Virus genome (UHGV): UHGV-0193089
DNA length: 22,351 bases
Source of the DNA: a virus
Direction: 5' to 3' (one strand)
A model generated the notes under the pieces. The model was not told where the DNA came from. It saw nothing but the letters and a program-made list of their open reading frames with translations, and did no database searches. This document shows, one piece after another, positions 3,887 through 22,351 of the stretch (the first letter of the stretch is position 1; every line of letters begins with the position of its first letter). A program made the translations under genes and the position numbers.

Positions 3887-4024
3887 TTATTTATCCCACC
3901 AAGTTCCGTATCTATCTATCCAGTTACACCAATCATCGACACTCCATTTTGTCGTGTCGCATTTTGGCAACTGGCATGAATATCTACCTTCTTTGTAAAG
4001 TCGACGTTTGACTTTCTTGAGCAT
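3887..4024 (-). CDS. small Trp/Cys-rich protein (45 aa)
   Basis: Translated by hand: MLKKVKRRLYKEGRYSCQLPKCDTTKWSVDDWCNWIDRYGTWWDK; ATG at 4024-4022 with the same GAGGTGAG SD as the neighbouring gene. Below the track size cut-off. Confidence 0.4.
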   Translation of the reverse strand: MLKKVKRRLYKEGRYSCQLPKCDTTKWSVDDWCNWIDRYGTWWDK

Positions 4025-4140
4025 GGCTCACCTCAATCGTAATAAGCTGGAATTGATTTTCCGCGTTGCTTCTGGCGACCAACACAAGTCACACCCATTT
4101 CACTGCGTGGCTTGCTGTAATAAATTCGGTTAGTTCAGAC

Positions 4141-4163
4141 AATAAAAAACCCACCGAAGTGGG
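4141..4163 (-). terminator. intrinsic terminator immediately after the 112-aa gene
   Basis: Minus strand: CCCAC-TTCG-GTGGG followed by TTTTTTATT; stem abuts the TAG stop at 4164-4166. Confidence 0.6.
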
Positions 4164-4502
4164 CTATGACCATTTTTTATTTGGATTTCGTTGGTGAGCG
4201 TGATTAACAACTCTGTGCATTACATCCTCATATTTTTCATCTTCAATTTTTTCGACATCGCGAGGAAATGGTGTTGCTAATGCTTTGTCAACTTTATCCA
4301 TTGGGTCTTCATTAATCTTATATTCAGGACCGTCATCTATAGCATTAAATCCAGGTGTTACACCGTTTTTTAATGCATATGCTATCCTCTTTTCCCATCT
4401 CGCTATTCTCCTCCTGTCTCGAGATGTAAGACCTCTATCAGATACTTTTCTGTTTTGTCCGCGGTCAGGATTAACATAAATAGTCTTTTTCACCATAAGC
4501 AT
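4164..4502 (-). CDS. hypothetical protein (about 112 aa), Arg-rich N-terminal half
   Basis: Track ORF 4164..4508 begins at a TTG overlapping the N stop; the first ATG is at 4502-4500. No family recognised. Confidence 0.6.
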   Translation of the reverse strand: MLMVKKTIYVNPDRGQNRKVSDRGLTSRDRRRIARWEKRIAYALKNGVTPGFNAIDDGPEYKINEDPMDKVDKALATPFPRDVEKIEDEKYEDVMHRVVNHAHQRNPNKKWS

Positions 4503-4504
4503 AC

Positions 4505-4810
4505 TCAATAAGCACCGTACGGTAGTTTACTGTACAATTTTATTTTTTGGACTGCATGTATTTTGTTTCCTAATGGGTTTGAATCTTTGTAATAAATACT
4601 TCTATTTTTTCGAACAACTTCTTCTTTCTTCTTGCAGCAAAGGATTCCTAGTGATGCTGCTTTGTCTGCTTTGACGCAACCAGAGAGCTTTAGCGCAATT
4701 TTTCGCGCCAGTGCTTCATTACTGCGTCGCTCGGCAATAAGTTCTGCTCTGCGAGCTTTGTAGCGGCTTTTTGCCGTACCTTTGGATTCTTTCCAGACAA
4801 TGGTTACCAT
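4505..4810 (-). CDS. N: N-type transcription antiterminator with a phage-21-type arginine-rich motif
   Basis: Met11 of track ORF with AGGAGA SD; GTAKSRYKARRAELIAERR matches the phage 21 N ARM peptide as recalled; first gene downstream of pL/nutL. Confidence 0.8.
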   Translation of the reverse strand: MVTIVWKESKGTAKSRYKARRAELIAERRSNEALARKIALKLSGCVKADKAASLGILCCKKKEEVVRKNRSIYYKDSNPLGNKIHAVQKIKLYSKLPYGAY

Positions 4811-4920
4811 GATGGTCTCCTTTAAGTGGCTTTGGCGCATGACGCGTCGAGGTGCTTATCTTCTCGATCGCTGTCTTGCAGCTGCAATTCGCGCCATCCC
4901 CAAAACCACTCAAGTTCTGG

Positions 4921-4962
4921 TCTCAACGGTTAGGTTGAGAGTCCGTCGATGTTAAAGAGCCT
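4921..4962 (-). promoter_or_regulatory. nutL (boxA plus boxB)
   Basis: On the transcribed (minus) strand: boxA GCTCTTTAAC (4952-4961), then boxB hairpin TCTCAAC-CTAACC-GTTGAGA (4921-4940); same CUAACC loop as the nutR hairpin. Confidence 0.55.
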
Positions 4963-5006
4963 GCCAATCTGTTCCGTTTGGCTTCCAGCGTCCTGCTGAT
5001 GGCTTA

Positions 5007-5060
5007 AATTTAAGACTTCTTAATTTATTGGTCAAGTGCATTTTTGAAGAAAACTTAATT
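5007..5060 (-). promoter_or_regulatory. OL operators and pL promoter
   Basis: 18-bp sites ATTTAAG-ACTT-CTTAATT (5008-5025) and TTTGAAG-AAAA-CTTAATT (5043-5060) resemble the OR half-site pattern; leftward -35 TTGACC (5035-5030) and -10 TAAATT (5012-5007) with 17-nt spacing. Confidence 0.5.
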
Positions 5061-5100
5061 TTATGGGCGTGAATTTAGTTTGTCTTTGATTTTTAACGGG

Positions 5101-5124
5101 AAATAAAAAAGGGGCGAAAGCCCC
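5101..5124 (-). terminator. intrinsic terminator of the repressor transcript
   Basis: Minus strand: GGGGC-TTTC-GCCCC followed by TTTTTTATTT, starting directly after the c2 TAA stop (5125-5127). Confidence 0.6.
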
Positions 5125-5775
5125 TTAAGGAAGGTTTGCTAGCTTGGCATCAACGACAACGCCAATGATTTTACAGTTCCCATTGATTTCAATCATTGGG
5201 TATTGTGGATTGAGTGGTTTCAGGAATTTTCTACCGGCATCAATAACTAACTTTTTGAATGTCGCCTCGTTTTCCCCTTCAAGTTTGGCGACTACCAGCT
5301 TTCCATTACGTGGTTCGACTTCTGGGTCGACGAGAATAATCATCCCCTCAGGAATACTCAGTCCTGCCGGGGCAGTCATTGAATCGCCTTTAACGTCGAG
5401 CCAAAAAGAGTCTTCAGAACAATCTACCGTTGTGTCGTACCAGTTATCTATTGCACGCCTATGATATGGCTCTACAGCTTCCATCCAACATCCTGCGCTT
5501 ACCCAACTAATTAGAGGATACGAACCTCTTGGATCATGCCTGCTGTGATAGGCAATGTTTGAAAGACTATCCTCTCCTTTCAATAGGTAATCAGGGGAGC
5601 ACTGCAAAGCCTTGGCTAAGGCCAATAGGTTTTCGCCATTGGGCTCAGTTTCAGATCGCTCCCATTGGGAAATAGCAACATTAGACACGCCAACCATCTT
5701 GCCAAGGGCAGCCTGCCTAATCTTGAGTTCTTTTCTGCGAGCGCGAATACGCTCACCCATCAGTTGTGTATTCAT
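5125..5775 (-). CDS. c2: prophage repressor, P22 C2 type (HTH N-domain, LexA-like self-cleaving C-domain)
   Basis: 216 aa; MNTQLMGERIRARRKELKIRQAALGKMVGVSNVAISQWERSETEPNGENLLALAKALQCSPDYLL... matches P22 C2 from memory over its whole length. Confidence 0.95.
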   Translation of the reverse strand: MNTQLMGERIRARRKELKIRQAALGKMVGVSNVAISQWERSETEPNGENLLALAKALQCSPDYLLKGEDSLSNIAYHSRHDPRGSYPLISWVSAGCWMEAVEPYHRRAIDNWYDTTVDCSEDSFWLDVKGDSMTAPAGLSIPEGMIILVDPEVEPRNGKLVVAKLEGENEATFKKLVIDAGRKFLKPLNPQYPMIEINGNCKIIGVVVDAKLANLP

Positions 5776-5855
5776 AGTTAAGACATCTTAAATAAACTTG
5801 ACTTAAGATTCCTTTGGTGGATAATTTAAGTGTTCTTTAATTTCGGAGCGAGTCT
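5776..5855. promoter_or_regulatory. OR operators with divergent pRM/pR
   Basis: Three 18-bp operator-like sites: AGTTAAG-ACAT-CTTAAAT (5776-5793), ACTTAAG-ATTC-CTTTGGT (5801-5818), ATTTAAG-TGTT-CTTTAAT (5824-5841); rightward -35 TTGACT (5798-5803) and -10 GATAAT (5820-5825); GGAG SD before cro. Confidence 0.7.
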
Positions 5856-6041
5856 ATGTACAAAAAAGATGTTATTGACCACTTCGGAACCCAGCGTGCT
5901 GTTGCTAAAGCACTAGGCATTAGCGATGCAGCAGTCTCTCAGTGGAAAGAAGTTATCCCAGAGAAAGACGCCTATCGATTGGAAATCGTTACAGCTGGCG
6001 CCCTGAAGTATCAAGAAAGTGCTTACCGCCAAGCGGCATAA
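5856..6041 (+). CDS. cro: Cro repressor, P22 type
   Basis: 61 aa; MYKKDVIDHFGTQRAVAKALGISDAAVSQWKEVIPEKDAYRLEIVTAGALKYQ... matches P22 Cro as recalled. Confidence 0.9.
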   Translation: MYKKDVIDHFGTQRAVAKALGISDAAVSQWKEVIPEKDAYRLEIVTAGALKYQESAYRQAA

Positions 6042-6047
6042 GCAAAT

Positions 6048-6090
6048 TGCTCTTTAACAGTTCTGGCCTTTCACCTCTAACCGGGTGAGC
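6048..6090 (+). promoter_or_regulatory. nutR (boxA plus boxB)
   Basis: boxA TGCTCTTTAACA (6048-6059); boxB hairpin TCACC-t-CTAACC-g-GGTGA (6071-6088) carrying the same CUAACC loop as nutL. Confidence 0.55.
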
Positions 6091-6156
6091 AAACATCAGC
6101 GGCAAATCCATTGGGTGTGCCGCTATAACTCAATATCAATATAGGAAAATTAACAA

Positions 6157-6453
6157 ATGGCACAAGCAAGCTACAGCAAGCCAACACAGCGAGAAATTGA
6201 TCGCGCTGAAACTGATTTACTCATCAACCTGTCAACGCTTACCCAGCGCGGTCTGGCAAAGATGATTGGCTGTCATGAATCGAAGATAAGCAGAACGGAC
6301 TGGAGATTTATTGCTTCGGTCTTGTGTGCTTTCGGAATGGCATCAGACATCAGTCCGATTAGCAGGGCTTTTAAGTATGCGCTTGATGAAATCACAAAGA
6401 AAAAATCCCCGGCCGCCACCGAGGATTTTAAGCAAATTGATATGCAATTCTGA
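6157..6453 (+). CDS. c1: CII-type transcriptional activator (P22 C1-like)
   Basis: 98 aa directly downstream of cro/nutR; HTH-like segment LTQRGLAKMIGCHESKISR; position and size fit the cII/c1 family. Confidence 0.8.
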   Translation: MAQASYSKPTQREIDRAETDLLINLSTLTQRGLAKMIGCHESKISRTDWRFIASVLCAFGMASDISPISRAFKYALDEITKKKSPAATEDFKQIDMQF

Positions 6454-6485
6454 GGGAATTACTGGATCAATCCACAGGAGTAATT

Positions 6486-6554
6486 ATGACAAAACGTCGT
6501 AAGAAATACCAGGAAAAGAAGAGATTCGACACCCTGATTCACCTGAGGGATTAG
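6486..6554 (+). CDS. possible 22-aa highly basic peptide
   Basis: ATG at 6486 preceded by CAGGAG with 5-nt spacing; MTKRRKKYQEKKRFDTLIHLRD (9 of 22 residues Lys/Arg). Coding status unproven. Confidence 0.3.
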   Translation: MTKRRKKYQEKKRFDTLIHLRD

Positions 6555-11542: not shown

Positions 11543-12185
11543 TGGCAGCAAATACCGAAATATTTGGGTAGTTGGCGATCTGCACGGATGCTACACGAAC
11601 ATGATGAAAAAACTGGAGACGATAGGATTCGACACCAAAAAAGACCTGCTTATCTCGGTTGGCGATTTGGTTGATCGCGGTACAGAGAACGTCGAATGTA
11701 TGGAATTAATCACATTCCCCTGGTTCAGAGCTGTACGTGGAAACCATGAGCAAATGATGATTGATGGCTTATCAGAGCGTGGAAACGTTAATCACTGGCT
11801 GCTTAATGGCGGTGGCTGGTTCTTTAATCTCGATTACGACAAAGAAATTCTGGCTAAAGCTCTTGCCCATAAAGCAGAAGAACTTCCGTTAATCATCGAA
11901 CTGGTGAGCAAAGGTAAAAAATATGTCATCTGCCACGCCGATTATCCTTGTGACGAATACGAATTTGGAAAGCCAGTTGATCCTCAGCAGGTAATCTGGA
12001 ACCGCGAACGAATCAGTAACTCACAAGACGGGATCGTGAAAGAAATCAAAGGCGCGGACACGTTCATCTTTGGTCATACGCCAGCAGTGAAACCACTTAA
12101 ATTTGCCAACCAAATGTATATCGATACCGGCGCAGTGTTCTGCGGAAACCTCACATTGATTCAGGTACAGGGAGAAGGCGCATGA
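11520..12185 (+). CDS. Ser/Thr protein phosphatase (lambda PPase type, calcineurin-like metallophosphatase)
   Basis: Met26 of track ORF; GDLHGCY, GDLVDRG and GNHE metallophosphatase motifs; matches the lambda 221-aa phosphatase from memory. Confidence 0.9.
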
Positions 12186-12805
12186 GACTCGAAAGCGTAG
12201 CTAAATTTCATTCGCCAAAAAGCCCGATGATGAGCGACTCACCACGGGCCACGGCTTCTGACTCTCTTTCCGGTACTGATGTGATGGCTGCTATGGGGAT
12301 GGCGCAATCACAAGCCGGATTCGGAATGGCTGCATTCTGCGGTAAGCATGAACTCAGCCAGAACGACAAACAAAAGGCTATCAACTATCTGATGCAATTT
12401 GCACACAAGGTATCGGGGAAATACCGTGGCGTGGCAAAGCTTGAAGGAAATACTAAGGCAAAGGTACTGCAAGTGCTCGCAACATTCGCTTATGCGGATT
12501 ATTGCCGTAGTGCCGCTACGCCGGGCGCAAGGTGCAGAGATTGCCACGGTACAGGCCGTGCGGTAGATATAGCAAAAACAGAGCAGTGGGGGAGAGTTGT
12601 TGAGAAAGAGTGCGGAAGATGCAAAGGCGTCGGCTATTCCAGGATGCCAGCAAGCGCCGCATATCGCGCTGTAACGATGCTAATCCCAAACCTTACCCAA
12701 CCCACCTGGTCACGCACTGTTAAGCCGCTGTATGACGCTCTGGTGGTGCAATGCCACAAAGAAGAGTCAATCGCAGACAACATTTTGAATGCGGTCACAC
12801 GTTAG
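12182..12805 (+). CDS. Q: late-gene antiterminator Q (lambda type)
   Basis: 207 aa; [27 protein letters not shown]... and the CRDCHGTG...CGRCKG zinc motif match lambda Q as recalled; followed by a pR'-like promoter. Confidence 0.92.
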
Positions 12806-12847: not shown

Positions 12848-12884
12848 TTGACTTTTTGAATAAAGTTGGGTAAATTTGACCCAA
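12848..12884 (+). promoter_or_regulatory. late promoter pR' with overlapping Q-utilisation region
   Basis: -35 TTGACT (12848-12853), 17-nt spacer, -10 TAAATT (12871-12876); flanking sequence resembles lambda pR'/qut as recalled. Confidence 0.65.
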
Positions 12885-12912
12885 CGATGGATAAATGCAC
12901 TCGTTAAATAAA

Positions 12913-12946
12913 GCCCTGAGTTAATATCTCGGGGCTTTTTGCGTTT
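12913..12946 (+). terminator. intrinsic terminator about 30-60 nt downstream of the pR' start
   Basis: GCCCTGAG-TTAATAT-CTCGGGGC (one G-U pair) followed by TTTTTGCGTTTT. Confidence 0.5.
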
Positions 12947-13083
12947 TAAGCACGGCCTTTCTGAAAGCACATCAAACCAAATACCAGACAGACAAAAATA
13001 ATCACCTTATCCGCTGTGGCTACGGTGCGGTGTGCTTTGCATAAAAGAAAACCAGCGCAATGGCTGGCTTCGTGAAAGCGGGT

Positions 13084-13562: not shown

Positions 13563-14022
13563 TCAACGTAAGGCGTTCCTCGATATGCTGGCATGGTCAG
13601 AGGGAACTGATAACGGACGGCAGAAAACCAGAAATCATGGTTATGACGTCATTGTAGGAGGAGAGCTATTCACTGATTACTCCGATCACCCTCGCAAACT
13701 TGTCACGCTAAACCCCAAACTCAAATCAACAGCCGCCGGACGCTATCAGCTTCTTTCCCGTTGGTGGGATGCTTACCGTAAACAGCTTGGACTGAAAGAT
13801 TTCTCTCCGAAAAGTCAGGACGCTGTAGCTCTGCAGCAGATTAAAGAGCGTGGTGCTTTACCGATGATTGACCGCGGCAGTATTCGTCAGGCAATCGACC
13901 GTTGCAGCAATATCTGGGCGTCGTTACCTGGTGCAGGTTACGGTCAGTATGAACATAAAATCGGTGACCTGATTGCCCGATTTAAAAAAGCTGGTGGGGT
14001 AGTAAATGAAGCTGAGATATAA
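13546..14022 (+). CDS. R: endolysin R (lytic transglycosylase)
   Basis: 158 aa; [49 protein letters not shown]... matches lambda R as recalled. Confidence 0.95.
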
Positions 14023-14398
14023 GCTGGTTATTGTTGCCTTCGTTGTTACCGTCATTGGTTCCTTCATCTGGTCTGCTGGGCATTACTACAGCAAATATCA
14101 GCACGAAAAGGAGCGTGCTGATGAGGCTGTACGAAATGCTGAATCAGCAACTGCCATTACCCGTAACGTTCTGCAATCACTGCAAATCATCAATACAGTT
14201 ATAGAGGCTAACCAGCATGCAAAAGAGCAGATCGCACTGGACGCATCGGGAGCCTCGGCTGATATCCGGGTTGCTGTTGCGAATGATGATTGCACTAATC
14301 GCCCTGTCCCTGCTGGCGCAGTTAAGCGGCTGCAACAATTCGCGAACGGTCTACGTCAAAGTGCCGGTAGTCCCGTTACCGGCCAGCCTGACGGCTGA
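14006..14398 (+). CDS. Rz: i-spanin (Rz-like): N-terminal TM helix plus coiled-coil periplasmic domain
   Basis: 130 aa directly after R; hydrophobic LVIVAFVVTVIGSFIW segment then a charged helical region; contains the start of an out-of-frame lipoprotein ORF. Confidence 0.8.
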   Translation: MKLRYKLVIVAFVVTVIGSFIWSAGHYYSKYQHEKERADEAVRNAESATAITRNVLQSLQIINTVIEANQHAKEQIALDASGASADIRVAVANDDCTNRPVPAGAVKRLQQFANGLRQSAGSPVTGQPDG

Positions 14399-14540
14399 CA
14401 CCCCGCAACCGGAAATCCCTGACAACCTGACGTGGGGCCAGAGCCTAGATTTAAACGTCAGTCTCCTATCAGCGCTTGGGCAGTGCAACCGGGATAAGGC
14501 AGATATTAGGCAAGCTGTAAAGAAACAAGCGGGCCAATAA
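14283..14540 (+). CDS. Rz1: o-spanin (Rz1-like outer-membrane lipoprotein)
   Basis: +1-frame ORF starting inside Rz; signal peptide MMIALIALSLLAQLSGC with lipobox LSGC; Pro-rich mature part. Start uncertain (track ORF begins at 14217). Confidence 0.65.
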   Translation: MMIALIALSLLAQLSGCNNSRTVYVKVPVVPLPASLTADTPQPEIPDNLTWGQSLDLNVSLLSALGQCNRDKADIRQAVKKQAGQ

Positions 14541-14567: not shown

Positions 14568-15248
14568 TTACAGAACCCACCACCTGATCGAATCTGTGGG
14601 TATGGTTGCAGCCTCGACATTCTGGATCATACCCAACTCGGTGGCCCTTCCCGGATCAATGATGGTTGCAGAAGTGATCAAATTAGCCCAGTCAATTTGC
14701 TCATCTGGGGCTACAGCGAGAGCCTCGATATTCATCACCTGCACAAATCTTTGCAAGTCGTCATCCAGACATGCCGCCCATTCCCTAAGCCTGAGGTGAT
14801 CTGCTTGTGGGGCGGCAAATCCCCAATGTAAAGGATGTAATAAAAATCGCGAGAGAGGATTAGCAAACCGCTCAGATCCAGCCATGAAAATAACATTTGC
14901 TATAGATTCCACGTTACTAAGGTTATGTGTCTTCACCTTTACAGGAAGAGACTTAAGAAAGTTGTATGCGGTAAAACCTGCAACGGTATCTCCACCTTTA
15001 CTAGAGATGTAAATCCTGATCTCAGAGGCTGGTTGGTTAGGGCTTGATATCGCTTTGAGGCAAACATCCATAAGGCTGGATACAGAAGCAACTGTCACAT
15101 CTGTCATGAAGTGTACGGTATGGATCATTTCAGTTTCCCAGAGATATGCCGCAATTGGCATTTTCATAATGCACATAAAGTGAAAGGTTTTCTGCGTAAA
15201 CCCGGATGAAATAATTTCATGAAGTAAGGCATTACAGAAGCCCTTCAT
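14568..15248 (-). CDS. ClpP-fold (S14/S49-like) serine peptidase homolog encoded antisense to the late operon
   Basis: 226-aa track ORF; by-eye alignment to ClpP: IRIYISSKGGDTVAGF vs IYLYINSPGG..TAG, and AGSERFANPLSRFLLHP vs [20 protein letters not shown]; candidate Ser (VESIA), His (LLHPL), Asp (QIDWA). No clear SD at 15248; true start may be Met25-30. Confidence 0.75.
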   Translation of the reverse strand: MKGFCNALLHEIISSGFTQKTFHFMCIMKMPIAAYLWETEMIHTVHFMTDVTVASVSSLMDVCLKAISSPNQPASEIRIYISSKGGDTVAGFTAYNFLKSLPVKVKTHNLSNVESIANVIFMAGSERFANPLSRFLLHPLHWGFAAPQADHLRLREWAACLDDDLQRFVQVMNIEALAVAPDEQIDWANLITSATIIDPGRATELGMIQNVEAATIPTDSIRWWVL

Positions 15249-15590
15249 TGAGGGGCTTCGATAATGAAACCGGAATTTATTCTGGGTAACCAGTTACGGC
15301 AGTACAGCGAAACAACCCAAGCCAGTAAGTGGGGAAATAACACTGGCAGCCACTGAAAGATGAACCTCCTGCCTTATGGCAAAAAAGATTCTTTGTGGTG
15401 GCGGACTGATGGAAAGACATCGGTTATTGCAGAGACCATTCAATGAGTGGTCTCGACAATGGCTTATACCCTACACGGGATAACTTAACTGATATCCCCA
15501 CAAGCGGATAAAGAGATTCTCAATGTCAGGAATCTACTTTTAGTCCTAGTAATGATGAACTAGATATCAGCTGAGTCGCTTGGGTGGTGA

Positions 15591-15827
15591 TTACGATTCT
15601 GCTTCAAACTCAGAAATTAGTTGATGAACACGTTCAGTATATGATGGGTTAGAACCTAGAAACTCTTCCACTGTCTGAATGGTTTCATCACCCTCCCATT
15701 CAAAATGGCTCACAGGTGACGAATGACCAGCCCTGACTTGGTAGGAGCCATTGTCCAATTTGTCCAGGAATATATAAGTTTCATTATCATGACCTGTATT
15801 TCGGTAAAAAATTTGCTTTGAGTTCAT
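15591..15827 (-). CDS. small acidic hypothetical protein (78 aa)
   Basis: Track ORF; ATG at 15827-15825 with GAGGAT SD 8 nt upstream; AT-rich like the neighbouring moron; start only 24 bp from the divergent terS ATG. Confidence 0.45.
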   Translation of the reverse strand: MNSKQIFYRNTGHDNETYIFLDKLDNGSYQVRAGHSSPVSHFEWEGDETIQTVEEFLGSNPSYTERVHQLISEFEAES

Positions 15828-15851
15828 TAAAGAAATCCTCTAGAGAAAACT

Positions 15852-16403
15852 ATGGCACTCACCGACAAACAAGAGATGTTCTGTCGCGAGTACCTCATCG
15901 ATTTAAACGCCACACAAGCGGCTATTCGGGCGGGGTACAGCGCAAAGACAGCTAACCGTACCGCATCCGAAAACATGTCAAAACCTGACATCCAATTCAG
16001 AATCGCCGAACTGAAAGCGCAACGCAATGATCTTGTTGGTATTAATGCAGAATATGTGCTTAATCGCCTTATTGAAATCGACCAGATGGATGTGCTCGAC
16101 ATTCTCCTGCAAAACGGTGAGCTAAAGCCCATTAAAGACTGGCCTAAGGTATGGCGCACAACGCTATCAGGAATGGATGTCGTGGAGATGGTATCCGCAG
16201 ATAGTGCTGCTCTCCTGAAGAAAATCAAATGGCCTGATAAGGTTAAAAACCTTGAGTTGCTTGGGCGTCATGTTTCTGTTCAGGCGTTTAAAGACAACGT
16301 CAAAAATGAAGTGACTGGCGCTGATGGAGGACCAGTCAGAACAGAAATTACCAACTTAACGCCGGAGCAGGCTGCAGAGGCGTATAGAAAAATGATGGGC
16401 TAA
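15852..16403 (+). CDS. terminase small subunit (Terminase_2/P27-type)
   Basis: 183 aa; [34 protein letters not shown]... is the characteristic N-terminus of this TerS family as recalled. Confidence 0.85.
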
Positions 16404-16405
16404 GT

Positions 16406-18028
16406 ATGCCGTTACCATTCCCCTTCGATTTTAAACATCCTGATTACCAGATGGTTTTTGAATGGCGGATGGAACGCCTACAGCGCATTCGCCAGAATCC
16501 TGAAATATTGCCTGCACTAAAACAGTTTTACCGAACTAATCCGGCTCAGTTCATCATCGACTGGGGCATGACAACGGACCCACGTAATATTGATTATGGC
16601 CTGCCGGTGACCATTCCGTTTTTACTCTTCCCTAAGCAGGAGGAGTGGATCCACTGGATTATGGAACGCTGGGGTAATCGGGAGAATGGTATTACCGAAA
16701 AATCCCGTGAAATGGGGCTCAGTTGGACCGCGATCGGACTGGCCTGCTCGCTTTGTCTCTTCAACAAAGAAATGGTTATCGGTTTCGGCTCCCGTAAAGA
16801 GGAATACGTCGACAGCACTGGTGACCCGAAAGCATTGTTCTGGAAGGCACGCAAGTTCGTGGAAACACTGCCCATCGAGTTTCGCGGTTCGTGGGACGAG
16901 AAGAAGCATGCGCCTTATATGCGCGTTGAGTTTCCAGATACTGGCGCGGTTATCAAAGGCGAGGCTGGCGACAATATCGGTCGTGGTGACCGTACCACGC
17001 TCTACCTGGTGGATGAGGCTGCATTCCTCCAGCGTCCTCTGCTGATTGACGCGGCGCTGTCGCAAACCACCCGCTGCCGTATCGACCTGAGTTCGGTTAA
17101 CGGCATGGCGAACCCGTTCGCGCAGAAGCGTCACGGCGGGAAGATACCGGTATTCACATTCCACTGGCGGGATGATCCTCGCAAGGATGAAGAGTGGTAT
17201 CGCAGGGAATGCGAGAAAATCGATAATCCGGTGGTGGTGGCACAGGAACTTGATCTGAACTACAGCGCATCAGCGGAAGGCGTCCTGATTCCATCCGAAT
17301 GGGTACAGGCTGCCGTTGATGCGCATATCAAACTGGGTATCCAGCCAACAGGCAAACGACTTGGCGCGATGGATGTCGCTGATGAAGGCAGGGACAAAAA
17401 TGCCTTTTCCACCCGTCATGGCTTCCTCCTGGAAAATGTGCGGGAATGGTCTGGTGTGGGTAGCGACATTTATCAGTCCGTCGAGAAGGTCTTCGGTTTT
17501 TGCGAACAGGACAACCTCGAAGAGTTTCGCTTTGACGAGGACGGGCTGGGCGCTGGCGTTCGCGGCGATGCACGCGCTATCAACGAACTGCGTAACGCTG
17601 CGCGCCGACCGTCAATACTCGCCACACCGTTTCGAGGTAGTGGCGCGGTATTTGATCCGGACGACGAAGCGGTGCGCGGTGACAACGGACAGGCCGCCCG
17701 CCTGAACAAGGACTTCTTCGCTAACGCCAAAGCCCAGAGCTGGTGGCGGTTACGTAAACTTTTTCAGAATACCTGGCGCGCCGTGGTTGAAGGTATGGAT
17801 TACAACCCGGACGAAATCATCTCAATCAGCAGTAGCATGGCACTCAAAGATAAACTCATCATCGAGCTTTCGCAGCCGACCTATTCCATTAATGGTGTGG
17901 GGAAAATCGTTATTGATAAACAGCCTGATGGAACCCGGTCGCCAAACCTTGCCGACTCGGTGATGATCAGCTACGCGCCAATGAATTCAGCCCTGAATAT
18001 CTGGGAGCTGCTAGGGAGACAGGCCTGA
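16406..18028 (+). CDS. terminase large subunit
   Basis: 540 aa immediately after TerS; Walker-B-like LYLVDEAAF; size and position typical of TerL. Confidence 0.9.
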
Positions 18029-19497
18029 TGGCACGAAACAAACAAGCCACGCGGCGAACGGCACAGGCCACCGCTGATGGATATGAGAACTTTGTCGCCC
18101 GCGTGGGGATGCAGACGCCTAACCAGCACTCAGCATCGACCTACCGGGCTAACTTCACCAGCCGCAACCGCATGCTGGTGGAATGGTCCTATCGTTCGTC
18201 CTGGATCATCGGCGAAGCGGTCGACGCTATCCCGGATGATATGACCCGCAAAGGCATTCGCATCACTTCGGAAATTGATGCAAAAGATCGCGGCATTCTC
18301 GAATCACAACTTGATGAGTTGCAGATCTGGGATGCGCTGAACGACGTGCTGAAATGGTCTCGCCTCTACGGCGGCGCGGTCGGCTTCATCATGATCGAGG
18401 GGCAGGCACCAATGACCCCGCTGCGGCTCGAAACCATTGGAGAAGGCAAGTTTAAGGGCATTCTCCCGCTCGACCGCTGGATGATTAACCCGGCCCTGAC
18501 CCGCCGCATTAAAGAGATGGGGCCAGATCTCGGCAAACCTGAGTTTTACGACGTGGTGACCACTGCAACGGGCATCCCGGCTTGGCGCATCCATCACAGC
18601 CGCCTGATTCGCTTCGACGGGGTGACGCTGCCATTCCAGCAGAAGATGACCGAAAACGAATGGGGAATGTCGGTTGTAGAGCGTATCTGGGATCGGCTTA
18701 CTGCGTTCGACAGCGCCACTGTCGGCGCGGCGCAGCTGGTCTACAAAGCGCATTTGCGTACCTACAGCGTGGAGAAGCTACGCGAGCTTATCGCACTTGG
18801 TGGTCCTGCGTATGAAGCGTTGCTGAAGAATATCGACCTGATTCGACAGTTCCAGAGCAATGAAGGCATGACGCTCATGGACTCGCGGGATAAGTTTGAA
18901 ACCCATCAGTACAGCTTCAGTGGTCTGGATGACATTCTTTCGCAGTTTGCAGAACAGATTAGCGGCGCTGTTGGTATTCCACTGGTGCGGTTGTTCGGAC
19001 AGTCCCCGAAAGGATTTTCTACCGGTGATGCAGATCTTGCCAACTATTACGACCGGGTGAGCTCATTGCAGGAGCGCCGCTTACGGATGCCGATGCGCCG
19101 GATACTGGACATTATGCACCGCTCGGAACTCGGTAAGCCGCTGCCGGACGATTTCACGTTTGAGTTTAACCCGCTCTGGCAAATGTCTGATGTCGATCGC
19201 TCAACGGTGGCGTTAAACACTACCAACGCAATCAGTACGGCGCTGGGTGATGGTCTGATGACACTGAAAGCCGCTATGACCGATTTGCGCGAAAATTCTG
19301 ACGTAACCGGCATCGGGGCATCCATTACCGACGAGGACATAGAGAATGCCGAAGACGAAGCGCCGCCAGGCATCGGCGAACTTGGCGACAAACCGCCAGA
19401 GTCGCCAGGCGGAGATCCGATATCGAACGAGCCTACGGCAGATAGCGCGGGCGGTCGGGGATATCGTAAATGGGCGCTACGATGGTTCAAACGATAG
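18028..19497 (+). CDS. portal protein
   Basis: 489 aa following TerL with a TGATG junction; acidic disordered C-terminus; call by position and size. Confidence 0.8.
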   Translation: MARNKQATRRTAQATADGYENFVARVGMQTPNQHSASTYRANFTSRNRMLVEWSYRSSWIIGEAVDAIPDDMTRKGIRITSEIDAKDRGILESQLDELQIWDALNDVLKWSRLYGGAVGFIMIEGQAPMTPLRLETIGEGKFKGILPLDRWMINPALTRRIKEMGPDLGKPEFYDVVTTATGIPAWRIHHSRLIRFDGVTLPFQQKMTENEWGMSVVERIWDRLTAFDSATVGAAQLVYKAHLRTYSVEKLRELIALGGPAYEALLKNIDLIRQFQSNEGMTLMDSRDKFETHQYSFSGLDDILSQFAEQISGAVGIPLVRLFGQSPKGFSTGDADLANYYDRVSSLQERRLRMPMRRILDIMHRSELGKPLPDDFTFEFNPLWQMSDVDRSTVALNTTNAISTALGDGLMTLKAAMTDLRENSDVTGIGASITDEDIENAEDEAPPGIGELGDKPPESPGGDPISNEPTADSAGGRGYRKWALRWFKR

Positions 19498-20119
19498 CGT
19501 AACCGAAATAATGGATGCGCTGGAGCGCTACAGCGAAATCATCACCCCCTGGGCGACGAAGGTAGCTGAGAACTTTACCGCAGACATAGCGCGCCAGAAT
19601 GAAAAGCAGTGGCGTCAACACAGCCGGAACATCAGTGCAGAGCTGCGCAACATGGTTGACTGCGCCCCGGTAGGCCAGGTGATGAAATCCATCGTTGCCG
19701 AGCAGATTAAGTACATCAAATCGCTACCTCTTGAGGCCGCCGATCGGGTGTATGACATTCAGAACAAAGCCATCGAGGCAGTTGTGACTGGCGGGCGGGC
19801 TGAGTCATTCGCGAAAGAGATAGCGGCGTCAGGTGACGTGTCACGCTCGCGAGCGAACCTTATCGCCCGTACCGAACTTGGACGCGCAACCGGCGCGCTC
19901 GATCAGGCGCGTGCGCTGTCAATTGGTTCGAATGGTTATATCTGGCGTACAGCCGAAGATGGCGATGTCCGGCACTCTCATTGTGAGATGGAGGGCAAGT
20001 TTGTCGAATGGGGCCGACCTCCAACGCTTGACGGTATGACCGGTCACGCTGGTGAGCTGCCGAACTGCCGCTGTTACAAAGAAATCGTCTTCCCCAACCC
20101 TCATTCTTATCTCGCCTGA
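19346..20119 (+). CDS. head morphogenesis protein, Mu F / SPP1 gp7 family
   Basis: C-terminal motif WRTAEDGDVRHSHCEMEG...PNCRCY typical of the family; track start 19346 overlaps the portal by 152 nt in another frame; first internal ATG beyond the portal stop is 19511. Confidence 0.8.
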   Translation: MPKTKRRQASANLATNRQSRQAEIRYRTSLRQIARAVGDIVNGRYDGSNDSVTEIMDALERYSEIITPWATKVAENFTADIARQNEKQWRQHSRNISAELRNMVDCAPVGQVMKSIVAEQIKYIKSLPLEAADRVYDIQNKAIEAVVTGGRAESFAKEIAASGDVSRSRANLIARTELGRATGALDQARALSIGSNGYIWRTAEDGDVRHSHCEMEGKFVEWGRPPTLDGMTGHAGELPNCRCYKEIVFPNPHSYLA

Positions 20120-20133
20120 ATCGCAGGTAAACC

Positions 20134-21354
20134 ATGAAATATTTTTTCAATACCCGGCTGGGGGAAACCCGCTATCAGCTGGCTGACGGCTCGCTGCTGT
20201 GCAAAGACGTGCCGATAGGTCGAACGGGTAAGCAGCTCTACGGCGCTGCCGATCTGCCAAACCTCAAACCCGACAAGCTCGGTGAGATAGTCGTAACGCG
20301 TTCTCCTGAGCAGGTATTCAATCCGGCCACGCTCGCCTCATTCGAAGGGATGAGCATCACGATCCTGCATCCTGAAGATGAAAACGGGAATGTGCGGCTG
20401 GTAAATCCCGAGAACTGGAAAGAGCTTGCTGTCGGGCATCTTCAGAATGTGCGGCGCGGGACTGGTGACCAGTCTGATTTGATGCTGGCTGACCTTATCG
20501 TCAAAGACGAAAACGCCATTCAGCTTATCGAAGATGGCCTGCGTGAAGTGTCGTGCGGCTATGACGCGGAGTACGAGCAGACCGAGCCAGGTAAAGCCGA
20601 GCAGGTCGATATTACCGGAAACCATGTGGCTCTTGTCCCCAAAGGCAGAGCCGGAAATCGTTGTGCAATTGGAGACAGAGACACAATGGCAAATCAAAAG
20701 AAAAACTGGTGGAACCGCATGCGTGCAGCCATCAAGACAGGAGATGCCGACACCATGAACGAACTGGTGGAGTCGGCTCCCGCATCGGTTACAGGAGATG
20801 AGGGGGATTTGCCGCAGGGCGTTAATCTCAACATCAACCTGTCCCCGCAGCAACCACTACCGGACAAAGCACCAGAGATGGGTGGAGGTCCAACCGTCGA
20901 CAGTGATGATGACCTCAAAACATTACTGAAAGCCCTGCTGGCTAAGCTGGAAGGAAATGCCACGGGCGATAACGATAATAAGCCTGACGATAATCCGACC
21001 GGTGACGGCGAGGATGATGAAGAGGAAACCACGATTACTGGTGACTCAGCCTGGCGTGCCGAAGTTATCGTTCCGGGTATCGATCTGAGCCGTAAGATGA
21101 AACCGACCGCGTTCAAACGCGAGGTTCTGGCTTCCGCTGACAAAACGCTGGTTCGCCAGATAGTCGGTGATGCGGATATCCGCAAATTACCGAAACAATC
21201 GGTCAACATGGCGTTTAATGCCGTGTCTGAGATTGCCAAAGGGCGAAACACCCGCGCCACCACCGGCGATGCACAGCGCCCAAACATGGGCATGACCAGT
21301 ATCGCTTCCCTGAACAAACAAAACGCTGAATTCTGGGCAAACCGTAAAGGGTAA
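20134..21354 (+). CDS. putative head scaffolding / maturation protein (acidic low-complexity C-terminal half)
   Basis: 406 aa after the MuF-like gene; structured N-terminal ~190 aa then a D/E/G-rich segment (GDNDNKPDDNPTGDGEDDEEE); function inferred from position. Confidence 0.6.
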   Translation: MKYFFNTRLGETRYQLADGSLLCKDVPIGRTGKQLYGAADLPNLKPDKLGEIVVTRSPEQVFNPATLASFEGMSITILHPEDENGNVRLVNPENWKELAVGHLQNVRRGTGDQSDLMLADLIVKDENAIQLIEDGLREVSCGYDAEYEQTEPGKAEQVDITGNHVALVPKGRAGNRCAIGDRDTMANQKKNWWNRMRAAIKTGDADTMNELVESAPASVTGDEGDLPQGVNLNINLSPQQPLPDKAPEMGGGPTVDSDDDLKTLLKALLAKLEGNATGDNDNKPDDNPTGDGEDDEEETTITGDSAWRAEVIVPGIDLSRKMKPTAFKREVLASADKTLVRQIVGDADIRKLPKQSVNMAFNAVSEIAKGRNTRATTGDAQRPNMGMTSIASLNKQNAEFWANRKG

Positions 21355-21357
21355 AAA

Positions 21358-21570
21358 ATGAATAATGTATTTCTGTACCGGATGCCTGTTGGCATTGCCG
21401 GGGCTGTCTCTCGCCCGCAGGACTTAACCGTCGAACCGGTGGTCCTTAAATCCGATAACGCCTTTGCTGCCTATGGGCTGGCTGGTAAATACGATGCTGA
21501 CGGTTTTTTCGTACCGCTGGCAGATGGTGATACCGCAGACAAGGTGAAGGGGATCTACGTGCGTCCTTAA
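21358..21570 (+). CDS. small hypothetical head-module protein (70 aa)
   Basis: Track ORF 4 nt after the previous stop; may be the 5' part of a frameshifted gene with the next ORF. Confidence 0.45.
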   Translation: MNNVFLYRMPVGIAGAVSRPQDLTVEPVVLKSDNAFAAYGLAGKYDADGFFVPLADGDTADKVKGIYVRP

Positions 21571-21577
21571 CCAGGAC

Positions 21578-21811
21578 ATGACGATATCGGTCTGGGTCTT
21601 TCCTGATACTGATATTTCAGATGTATCGCGTGAGTTAATTGCGGCAATTAAACAGGGGTATCTCACAGTAAAAGCCGCCGGGGTATGGGCGGGGGGCATT
21701 GAAACTCCTTCGGTGGAAACCCCATCGGAAGGCTCAAAATTTTTTGGTTTTGATATGGATAACGAATTCATCAGTGGTTTTGATGTAGGAGCATGGGGAG
21801 TATTACTCTGA
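21578..21811 (+). CDS. small hypothetical head-module protein (77 aa)
   Basis: Track ORF; its frame is open from 21548, overlapping the end of the previous ORF; SD spacing poor (GGA-c-ATG). Confidence 0.45.
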
Positions 21812-22351
21812 TGGCGAAAAATGACTTTAAAGCGTTTGCAACTGATCGAAATGCCAATGTTATGTCGCAGGAGGAATGGGAAGCGTTGCCTGCGCTTTTA
21901 TCCGGATTTACAGCAGGGAAAGCATCCAGTGCGCAGGTGAACAAAGCCATTCGACAGGCCAGCTTTATTGCTGCAGCTCTGGCCCAGTTTGTAAGTGACA
22001 AAACGCAACGGGATGTGCTTGATAATGGTGATCTGCCCGGATTTGTTGAATTGCTGGGATCGGGGTTTGCTGTTGAATACCTGAGCCGCAAGAATCCGTT
22101 TGGCGATATCAAATCGGATGGCACTGTGCAAACGGCTCTCGAAAACCTTGGTTTGGTGGATGATTCCGGTGTAGTAGGCCGTTTGCTTAATACTCAAGTG
22201 ATTACCTCATCTGGTACTTACACCCCAACACCGGGTACCCGGAAAATTAAGGCAATTCTTACCGGGGGAGGTGGCGGTGGTAGTTCTGTCATCGCCACAT
22301 CATTTTCTCAGACGGCGTTTGGAGGTGGAGGTGGCTCTGCCGCAACCTGCA
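21811..22351 (+). CDS. structural protein, N-terminal fragment with Gly-run linkers (gene continues past the window end)
   Basis: ATG at 21811 overlapping the previous stop (TGATG); hand translation open for 180 codons to the window end ([33 protein letters not shown]...TGGGGGGSS...[11 protein letters not shown]). Confidence 0.5.

What the first reader, a model, noticed from the sequence alone, without database searches (positions are those of the whole stretch)
4505..6090. Mosaic control region: phage-21-type N/nut with P22-type c2/cro/operators
The N protein carries the phage-21-type ARM, and both nutL and nutR boxB hairpins share a CUAACC loop, which differs from the lambda and P22 boxB loops as I recall them. 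The repressor, Cro and the 18-bp operators are P22 type, and Q/S/R downstream are lambda type. That gives three specificity systems from three reference phages in one prophage.
Basis: partly seen in the sequence, partly recalled or inferred. Interest (0 to 1): 0.4.

Follow-up and report, generated by a model that had tools for sequence, protein, structure and literature searches.

The report
Phage 21 immunity region, already known
This stretch is the ordinary, long-known immunity and early-control region of coliphage 21 sitting in a lambda-like prophage, not a new three-way mosaic; its P22-like repressor and operators are phage 21's own.

Summary
N carries the phage-21 arginine-rich motif. Both boxB hairpins have CUAACC loops. 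The repressor, Cro and 18-bp operators resemble P22. Q, S and R resemble lambda.

The "three phages" interpretation fails. Window 4588..6493 is one colinear block matching phage 21 itself at 97.5%. Between 4650 and 6399 there are only 8 mismatched columns. The repressor (216/216) and Cro (61/61) are identical to phage 21's. Every nut and operator element annotated in phage 21 occurs exactly and in the same order. P22 matches only 4946..6059 at 83.5%, and that homology stops between boxA and boxB on both sides. The P22 likeness is therefore a property of phage 21's own immunity region.

The imm21 plus lambda-type Q/S/R combination already exists in the lab hybrid lambda imm21 and in natural phage mEp235 (99.4% over 4100..6495). 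About 179 of 5426 complete E. coli genomes hold this region.

The real junctions lie inside N (about 4620..4650) and inside cII (about 6385..6400). The N C-terminus, an HK022-type nun gene and its terminator form a cassette, and a dead fragment of an older N 3' end lies downstream. Verdict: ordinary and already known.

The parts
4070..4131 (-). Dead 3' fragment of a phage-21/lambda-type N gene. It reads NRIYYSKPRSEMGVTCVGRQK... with no start codon and lies downstream of the nun terminator.
   Evidence: 96.8% identical to phage 21 33672..33733, which is inside N21.
4148..4165 (-). Intrinsic terminator hairpin after nun
   Evidence: Terminator scan and fold at -11 kcal/mol. It lies within the HK022-homologous block.
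4164..4496 (-). nun gene: an HK022-type Nun transcription-arrest (lambda exclusion) protein
   Evidence: 108/109 identical to HK022 Nun, PDB 6ALG. The arginine-rich motif is 26/26 identical to the 1HJI peptide. Matches PHROG 'Nun-like' at 2e-69.
4529..4557 (-). nun promoter (-35 ATGCAG, -10 TACAGT), embedded in the N C-terminal coding sequence
   Evidence: Identical over 51 nt to the stretch that carries the annotated nun promoter in phage O276. Function is inferred from that annotation.
4505..4810 (-). N antiterminator, a chimera. Residues 1 to about 55-64 are phage-21 type (boxB-binding ARM and central region). The C-terminal 37-45 residues are of the type found next to nun in HK022.
   Evidence: AAGGAG ribosome-binding site 7 nt upstream of the ATG at 4810.
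4921..4940 (-). nutL boxB hairpin with CUAACC loop
   Evidence: Exact match to the annotated phage 21 nutL stem-loop. Fold.
4950..4961 (-). nutL boxA (GGCTCTTTAACA)
   Evidence: Exact match to annotated phage 21 boxA-L.
5007..5035 (-). pL promoter (TTGACC-17-TAAATT), overlapping OL1
   Evidence: Promoter scan. Position relative to the annotated phage 21 pL start and OL1.
5008..5089 (.). OL1 (5008..5025), OL2 (5043..5060) and OL3 (5072..5089), each an 18-bp operator
   Evidence: Each is an exact match to the annotated phage 21 operators.
5109..5126 (-). Terminator hairpin at the end of the repressor gene
   Evidence: Annotated as a terminator in phage 21.
5125..5775 (-). cI (c2-type) LexA-like repressor, 216 aa
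   Evidence: 216/216 identical to the phage 21 reading frame and 202/216 to P22 c2. Pfam HTH_3 plus Peptidase_S24. The N-terminal domain matches PDB 1ADR with 2 differences in residues 1-68.
5776..5841 (.). OR3 (5776..5793), OR2 (5801..5818) and OR1 (5824..5841)
   Evidence: Exact matches to phage 21. Four differences from P22 across the whole OR region.
5798..5825 (+). pR promoter (TTGACT-16-GATAAT), overlapping OR2 and OR1
   Evidence: Promoter scan, 10 of 12 matches.
5856..6041 (+). cro
   Evidence: 61/61 identical to phage 21 Cro and 60/61 to P22 Cro. Pfam P22_Cro at 6e-28.
6048..6059 (+). nutR boxA (TGCTCTTTAACA)
   Evidence: Exact match to annotated phage 21 boxA-R.
6071..6088 (+). nutR boxB hairpin with CUAACC loop
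   Evidence: Exact match to the annotated phage 21 nutR stem-loop. Fold.
6157..6453 (+). cII activator. It is phage-21 type up to about codon 77, with a different C-terminal tail; the right-hand junction of the imm21 block lies at about 6385..6400.
   Evidence: 88/98 identical to phage 21 cII and 24% to P22 c1. Mismatch profile. Pfam Phage_CII.
6402..6429 (-). Terminator-like hairpin on the minus strand inside the cII 3' end. I read it as a likely oop terminator from its position, by analogy with the annotated P22 oop terminator at the 3' end of c1.
   Evidence: Terminator scan, 12-bp stem. Function is inferred.
12182..12805 (+). Q late antiterminator (lambda/P22 type)
   Evidence: 206/207 identical to lambda Q, 202/207 to P22 gp23, 207/207 to mEp235 Q and 18% to phage 21 Q.
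12848..12940 (+). pR'/qut (12848..12876) and the late terminator (12910..12940). In sequence detail these are P22/mEp235-like; the lambda 6S leader is absent.
   Evidence: Alignment A3. Coordinates.

Best explanation
Window 4505..6090 is the natural immunity and early-control region of coliphage 21 (imm21), carried by a lambdoid prophage closely related in this region to phage mEp235.

**How it works (established lambdoid logic).**
- In the lysogen, the LexA-like repressor binds the 18-bp operators OL1-3 and OR1-3 and shuts off pL and pR.
- After induction or infection, pL and pR fire, Cro turns the repressor promoter down, and N is made from pL.
- The phage-21-type arginine-rich motif of N binds the CUAACC-loop boxB hairpins in the nutL and nutR transcripts.
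- Together with boxA and the host Nus factors, N makes RNA polymerase read through downstream terminators towards cII, the replication genes and Q.
- Q (lambda/P22 type) then acts at qut/pR' to switch on lysis and head genes.

**Why it looks P22-like.** The repressor/Cro/operator set is not a separate import. Phage 21 and P22 share a homologous immunity core from OL to boxA-R, while their N proteins and boxB hairpins differ.

**Where the real recombination joints are.** They lie just outside the functional core.
- One joint is inside N, at about codons 55-64. Beyond it the C-terminal part of N, the nun promoter, nun and its terminator form a cassette of the HK022 type.
- The other joint is inside cII, at about codon 77.

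**What is shown and what is inferred.** The sequence identities and the positions of all elements are shown. Regulation, immunity specificity and N/Nun activity are inferred from identity to characterised proteins and sites.
For: - Window 4588..6493 aligns colinearly to phage 21 33718..35626 at 97.5%. There are 8 mismatched columns between 4650 and 6399.
- cI is 216/216 and Cro 61/61 identical to phage 21.
- boxA-L, nutL boxB, OL1-3, OR1-3, boxA-R and nutR boxB as annotated in OL657228 all occur as exact strings in the same order.
- N residues 8-29 are identical to the phi21 N peptide solved with its boxB RNA, PDB 1NYB.
- P22 aligns only over 4946..6059 at 83.5%. Mismatch density jumps to about 50% immediately outside boxA on both sides.
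- mEp235 matches 4070..6495 at 99.4%, with N 98/101, cI 216/216 and Q 207/207 identical.
- The lambda imm21 hybrid has the same imm21 block plus lambda Q/S/R.
- 179 of 5426 complete E. coli genomes hold at least 80% of 4000..6500.
- pL and pR consensus promoters overlap the operators.
Against: Nothing in the sequence argues against this explanation. Four limits apply.
- No experiment here shows that the prophage is inducible or that the chimeric N works.
- The C-terminal 40-odd residues of N differ from phage 21 (76.5% identity overall). Full equivalence to N21 is therefore not shown.
- Functional cross-immunity with phage 21, and cross-recognition with P22 c2, is inferred from sequence identity and from my recollection of the 1970s-80s literature. 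I could verify those papers only as citations.
- No complete E. coli genome or phage record holds 80% or more of the whole 22-kb window. The prophage as a whole is a new assortment of known modules.
Confidence: 0.95

Rival explanations
1. The control region is a recombinant that joins a phage-21 N/nut module to a P22 c2/cro/operator module, with 21/P22 junctions between nutL and OL and between cro and nutR. Adding lambda Q gives three independent sources.
For: The repressor is 93.5% and Cro 98.4% identical to P22, and OR1 and OL1 are identical. P22 homology ends between boxA and boxB on both sides. Without the phage 21 sequence to hand, that pattern looks like a pair of junctions.
Against: Across those same supposed junctions the window stays about 99.5% identical to phage 21. 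The repressor, Cro and all six operators are closer to phage 21 (100%) than to P22. DNA identity to P22 is only 83.5%. Any 21/P22 exchange is an old feature of phage 21's own lineage and not of this prophage.
Confidence: 0.03
2. N and the boxB hairpins are really of the P22 gene-24 type, making the whole region a P22 immC region.
For: None beyond the P22-like repressor and Cro.
Against: N is 29% identical to P22 gp24 and has the phi21 ARM 22/22. P22 boxB loops are GACAA while the window has CUAACC. cII is 24% identical to P22 c1.
Confidence: 0.01
3. The window is a laboratory construct or contamination (lambda imm21, or DE3 from BL21(DE3)) and not a natural prophage.
For: DE3 and lambda imm21 match 4617..6493 at 98.1% and carry lambda Q/S/R.
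Against: - The window has nun, a different N C-terminus, a DnaB-type helicase in place of lambda P, an Erf/Abc2 recombination module and a non-lambda head module.
- Lambda imm21 shares only scattered blocks with the window.
- The same nun-N-imm21 arrangement is present in 179 complete E. coli genomes from animals, humans and water.
Confidence: 0.01

Closest known systems
Immunity region of coliphage 21 (imm21; GenBank OL657228 33718..35626; also present in lambda imm21 and DE3)
   Same: Same gene order: N, nutL, pL/OL1-3, cI, OR3-1/pR, cro, nutR, cII. cI and Cro are identical. All nut and operator elements are identical. N is identical for residues 1-55 except for one substitution.
   Different: The last 40-odd residues of N and the last 20 or so residues of cII differ. 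A nun cassette follows N here, where phage 21 has ral. Phage 21 has its own Q21/pinholin late region, whereas this prophage has lambda-type Q/S/R.
Phage mEp235 (JQ182731 / NC_019708), and for this region also Kapi1, mEpX1 and phiv205-1
   Same: 99.4% identity over 4070..6495, including nun, the chimeric N, imm21 and cII. Q is 207/207 identical. The pR'/qut/terminator region is of the same type. mEp235 is annotated with Nun, N, a P22-like repressor and Cro, and lambda-like Q.
   Different: The early-left genes, part of the replication and nin region, and the whole head module differ. Only 39% of the window is covered.
P22 immC region (gene 24, c2, cro, c1)
   Same: Homologous repressor (93.5%), Cro (98.4%), 18-bp operators and boxA. 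The lambda-type Q also equals P22 gp23 at 97.6%, and the pR'/qut/late terminator region is P22-like.
   Different: N (29%), the boxB hairpins (GACAA against CUAACC loops) and cII/c1 (24%) are unrelated in specificity. DNA identity is only 83.5%, and only over 4946..6059.
HK022 nun locus
   Same: Window 4147..4622 is 96.6% identical to HK022. Nun is 108/109 identical. The stretch carrying the annotated nun promoter is identical over 51 nt, and the terminator is shared.
   Different: HK022 has no N and uses putL RNA. The stretch upstream of nun that encodes the N C-terminus here is an ORF-less remnant in HK022, with no start codon and the stop codon changed to TGG.

Membership tests
Phage 21 immunity region (imm21) | N protein with the phi21 arginine-rich motif (GTAKSRYKARRAELIAERR) | tested here: met
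   22/22 identical to the PDB 1NYB peptide. Residues 1-55 have one substitution against N21.
Phage 21 immunity region (imm21) | nutL and nutR boxB hairpins with a CUAACC hexaloop, each preceded by boxA GCTCTTTA | tested here: met
   Exact matches to the annotated phage 21 elements. Folds.
Phage 21 immunity region (imm21) | Phage 21 repressor and Cro sequences | tested here: met
   216/216 and 61/61 identical.
Phage 21 immunity region (imm21) | Operators OL1-3 and OR1-3 of phage 21, in the same order and spacing | tested here: met
   Six exact matches and identical alignments.
Phage 21 immunity region (imm21) | Functional homoimmunity with phage 21 / lambda imm21 | not testable with these tools
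   Needs plating of lambda imm21 on a lysogen. It is expected from the identical repressor and operators.
P22 immC region | c2 repressor, Cro and 18-bp operators of the P22 type | tested here: met
   93.5% and 98.4% protein identity. OR1 and OL1 are identical, and there are 4 differences across OR. The family is shared with phage 21.
P22 immC region | Gene 24 antiterminator and GACAA-loop boxB | tested here: not met
   29% identity to gp24. The boxB loops differ.
P22 immC region | c1 activator | tested here: not met
   The window cII is 24% identical to P22 c1 and 90% to phage 21 cII.
Lambda/P22-type ('type 1') Q late antitermination | Q protein of the lambda family | tested here: met
   206/207 to lambda Q and 202/207 to P22 gp23. 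Pfam Antiterm at 1e-57.
Lambda/P22-type ('type 1') Q late antitermination | pR' with a qut/Q-binding element between -35 and -10 | tested here: met
   TTGACTTTTTGAATAAAGTTGGGTAAATT is identical to P22 and mEp235, with 2 differences from lambda.
Lambda/P22-type ('type 1') Q late antitermination | Lambda 6S leader and tR' | tested here: not met
   The lambda leader beyond about +20 is replaced by the short P22/mEp235-type leader and terminator.
HK022 Nun exclusion protein | Nun sequence with a lambda-boxB-binding ARM and a C-terminal ...KKWS | tested here: met
   108/109 identical to PDB 6ALG and 26/26 to the 1HJI ARM peptide.
HK022 Nun exclusion protein | Exclusion of lambda-nut phages by the lysogen | not testable with these tools
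   Needs a plating test with a lambda-nut phage heteroimmune to imm21 (for example lambda imm434) on the lysogen.

The most novel reading that the evidence does not exclude
The only mildly new angle concerns the left edge of the region, not the control region itself. The C-terminal (RNA-polymerase-contacting) part of N, the nun promoter embedded in it, nun and its terminator appear to travel as one cassette.

- The cassette was dropped into the 3' end of a 21-type N gene. It left a dead copy of the original N 3' end at 4070..4131.
- A DNA match to the same stretch (about 92% identity) is present in Stx1a phages and PA28, whose repressor and Cro carry different annotations. I did not check the N sequences of those phages.
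- The same N-tail sequence survives as an ORF-less fossil upstream of nun in HK022. This would imply that the N-less, put-RNA-using HK022 descends from an ancestor that had both N and nun.
- It would also mean that N and its antagonist-like relative Nun coexist by having different boxB specificities (phi21-type for N, lambda-type for Nun).

I could not establish whether this has already been pointed out in the HK022/HK97 genome literature.
Probability: 0.3. Interest if true: 0.25.

Novelty: already known. Interest (0 to 1): 0.07.

Why it matters
It matters little for discovery. The region is a textbook module (imm21). Its N-boxB complex has been solved (PDB 1NYB), and papers on the operators of P22 and 21 (1980) and on the N/nut determinants of lambda, phi21 and P22 (1985) are cited. 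The combination with lambda-type late control already exists in lambda imm21 and in mEp235.

The useful outcome is a correction. The prophage should be annotated as imm21-type, with predicted immunity to phage 21 and lambda imm21. It carries an HK022-type Nun, which predicts exclusion of phages that use lambda-type nut sites.

The case also shows a trap for sequence-only reading. Similarity to a famous reference (P22) can hide identity to a less remembered one (phage 21).

Tried and rejected
- **Looked for a 21/P22 recombination junction inside 4505..6090.** None exists.
- **Tested whether N and boxB could be P22 gp24 type.** Rejected.
- **Tested whether 'lambda-type' Q distinguishes lambda from P22.** It does not. 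Identity is 99.5% against 97.6%, and qut and the late terminator are P22-like.
- **Considered DE3 or lambda imm21 contamination.** Rejected on nun, the replication genes and the head genes.
- **Rfam scan of the whole window at gathering thresholds.** No hits.
- **PADLOC scan of nun, the reverse ClpP-like ORF and the small early-left ORFs.** No hits.
- **Tried to read the primary papers.** Poteete et al. 1980 and Cilley & Williamson 2003 are not held in the library. Only their citations could be verified. Text searches for an explicit statement that phages 21 and P22 share immunity specificity found none.
Full report
**What is there.** The minus strand of 4505..4810 encodes a 101-aa N protein, MVTIVWKESKGTAKSRYKARRAELIAERR....
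- Upstream of N on that strand lie a boxA (GGCTCTTTAACA, 4950..4961) and a hairpin, UCUCAAC-CUAACC-GUUGAGA (4921..4940).
- Next come a pL-like promoter (5007..5035) and three 18-bp operators (5008..5089).
- A 216-aa HTH plus S24-peptidase repressor follows (5125..5775, minus strand).
- Three more operators (5776..5841) overlap a strong pR-like promoter (5798..5825).
- A 61-aa Cro (5856..6041) comes next.
- A second boxA (6048..6059) follows Cro, then a second hairpin, UCACCU-CUAACC-GGGUGA (6071..6088), then cII (6157..6453).
- Both hairpins fold with a 6-nt CUAACC loop.

**What it matches.** A megablast of 4100..6500 against 50,697 phage records gave mEp235 at 99.4% over the full length. Phage 21 itself, lambda imm21 and DE3 matched at 98.1% from 4617 to 6493.

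I then aligned the window against the complete genomes of phage 21, P22 and lambda.
- The window aligns to phage 21 as one colinear block, 4588..6493 against 33718..35626 at 97.5%.
- It aligns to P22 only over 4946..6059, at 83.5%.
- It does not align to lambda in this stretch except for a short piece at the cII/O border.
- A 50-bp mismatch profile shows only 8 mismatched columns against phage 21 between 4650 and 6399. Sharp rises occur to the left of about 4650 and to the right of about 6400.
- Against P22, mismatches run at 4-34% per bin between 4950 and 6050. They jump to about 50% immediately outside that interval.

**Proteins.**

| Protein | vs phage 21 | vs P22 | vs lambda |
|---|---|---|---|
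| Repressor (cI/c2) | 216/216 (full reading frame) | 202/216 | not compared |
| Cro | 61/61 | 60/61 | not compared |
| cII (c1 in P22) | 88/98 | 24% | 37% |
| N | 76.5% overall; residues 1-55 have one substitution | 29% (gp24) | 28% |

- N residues 8-29 are 22/22 identical to the phi21 N peptide whose complex with boxB RNA is PDB 1NYB.
- Residues 1-68 of the repressor's DNA-binding domain differ from the solved P22 c2 N-terminal domain at two positions, both outside the SNVAISQWE helix.

**Sites.** All ten regulatory elements annotated in the phage 21 record occur in the window as exact strings, in the same order and spacing. These are boxA-L, nutL boxB, OL1, OL2, OL3, three OR operators, boxA-R and nutR boxB.
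- P22 has identical OR1 and OL1.
- P22 shows four differences across OR and a diverged OL3.
- The P22 boxB hairpins carry GACAA loops, and lambda's carry GAAGA/GAAAA loops.

**Consequence for the interpretation.** The N/nut system and the repressor/Cro/operator system were not brought together in this prophage. They sit together, base for base, in phage 21.

The 'P22 type' of the repressor set is real at the family level, but it is a feature of phage 21's own immunity region.
- The two phages share a homologous core from OL to boxA-R.
- They diverge completely in boxB, N and cII/c1.
- Two papers bear on this. [quoted passage not shown] - I could verify both only as citations; the papers themselves are not held.
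- That the 21 and P22 repressors recognise each other's operators is my recollection of that literature. It is consistent with the near-identical DNA-binding domains and operators seen here.

**Late control.**
- Q (12182..12805) is 206/207 identical to lambda Q. It is also 202/207 identical to P22 gp23 and 207/207 to mEp235 Q.
- The phage L genome paper states that lambda Q and P22 gp23 are very similar and interchangeable (PMC8022706).
- The pR'/qut string is identical to P22 and mEp235, with two differences from lambda.
- The leader and terminator beyond about +20 are the short P22/mEp235 type, not lambda's 6S RNA.
- S is 105/107 and R 145/158 identical to lambda.

'Lambda type' is therefore acceptable for Q/S/R, but it does not add a third independent source in any sharp sense. 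The pairing of imm21 with lambda-type Q/S/R is exactly that of the classical hybrid lambda imm21 and of the natural phage mEp235.

**Prevalence.** 179 of 5426 complete E. coli genomes hold at least 80% of 4000..6500 at 98-99.6% identity.

**Where the real joints are.** The left joint lies inside N.
- Window 4147..4622 is 96.6% identical to HK022.
- That block contains the last 37 or so codons of N, the stretch carrying the annotated nun promoter (identical over 51 nt, window 4529..4557), and nun itself (108/109 identical to HK022 Nun, PDB 6ALG).
- It also contains the nun terminator.
- In HK022 the N-tail sequence has no start codon and its stop codon reads TGG, so there it is a remnant.
- Downstream of the nun terminator the window keeps a second, dead N 3' end of the 21/lambda type (4070..4131). 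It is 96.8% identical to phage 21 and reads NRIYYSKPRSEMGVTCVGRQK.
- The simplest reading is that an 'N-tail plus nun' cassette was recombined into the conserved ...NR.IYY... part of a 21-type N gene.
- A DNA match to 4070..4620 at about 92% also occurs in Stx1a phages and PA28, whose repressor and Cro carry different annotations. I did not compare the N sequences of those phages.
- A comparable swap of the C-terminal 25-35 residues between the functionally interchangeable gp24 proteins of P22 and L is on record.

The right joint lies in cII, at about codon 77.

**Mechanism.** I commit to standard lambdoid control, with imm21 specificity for repression and phi21 specificity for N antitermination.
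- Lambda/P22-type Q drives late genes.
- Nun, made from its own promoter in the lysogen, arrests polymerase on incoming phages that have lambda-type boxB. The Nun mechanism and its lambda-boxB specificity are described in PMC5386594.
- Because the resident nut sites carry the phi21-type loop, I infer that Nun spares the prophage's own transcripts.

All of the functional statements are inferences from identity to characterised parts. None was tested here.

**Verdict.** The feature is already known and ordinary.

Noticed in passing
window 4164..4496 (-), promoter 4529..4557 (-), terminator 4148..4165 (-): An HK022-type nun gene sits immediately downstream of N. Nun is 108/109 identical to the solved protein and its lambda-boxB-binding ARM is identical. 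The stretch carrying the annotated nun promoter (identical over 51 nt to phage O276) lies inside the N coding sequence. N (phi21 boxB specificity) and Nun (lambda boxB specificity) therefore coexist in one prophage.
   Followed up: partly
window 4505..4650 (-) and HK022 locus L005 1830..1976: N is a chimera. Residues 1 to about 55 are phage-21 type. The C-terminal tail is the sequence found as an ORF-less remnant upstream of nun in HK022, where it has no start codon and the stop is changed to TGG. This suggests that HK022 descends from an ancestor carrying both N and nun.
   Followed up: partly
window 4070..4131 (-): A dead fragment of a second N 3' end of the phage 21/lambda type (NRIYYSKPRSEMGVTCVGRQK...) lies just after the nun terminator. 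It looks like a scar left by insertion of the N-tail plus nun cassette.
   Followed up: partly
L001 (phage 21, OL657228) 34255..34971: The phage 21 reference record annotates the repressor as 190 aa starting at MVGVSN. The 216-aa frame starting MNTQLMGER is intact and matches the solved P22 c2 N-terminus. The three right operators in that record are labelled OR2, OR2 and OR3. This looks like an annotation slip in the reference and is not biology.
   Followed up: partly
window 6385..6453 (+) with minus-strand hairpin 6402..6429: The last 20 or so residues of cII differ from phage 21, and the imm21 block ends inside cII. By position, this is where I would expect the oop antisense terminator.
   Followed up: no
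window 12848..13070: The late promoter/qut and the short leader with its terminator are P22/mEp235-like. Lambda's 6S RNA leader (about 400 bp) is absent, although Q, S and R on either side are lambda-like.
   Followed up: partly
window 14568..15248 (-): A 226-aa ClpP/head-maturation-protease-like ORF lies on the opposite strand between the lysis genes and the terminase, outside any head module. It has no PADLOC hit and its role is unknown (Pfam CLP_protease 7e-12, PHROG 94 1e-22).
   Followed up: partly
window 15500..22351: The packaging and head module (small terminase, 540-aa TerL, Phage_portal_3/DUF1073 portal, Mu-F-like protein, DUF2213) resembles vB_EcoM-606R2 and Salmonella phage SEN34. 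It does not resemble lambda, HK97 or P22. No phage record or complete E. coli genome covers 80% or more of the whole window.
   Followed up: partly
window 14006..14540 (+): Lambda homology ends at 13997, inside the 3' end of R. The spanin pair that follows (DUF2570-type i-spanin of 130 aa with an embedded LysC/Rz1-like ORF) is not the lambda Rz/Rz1.
   Followed up: no
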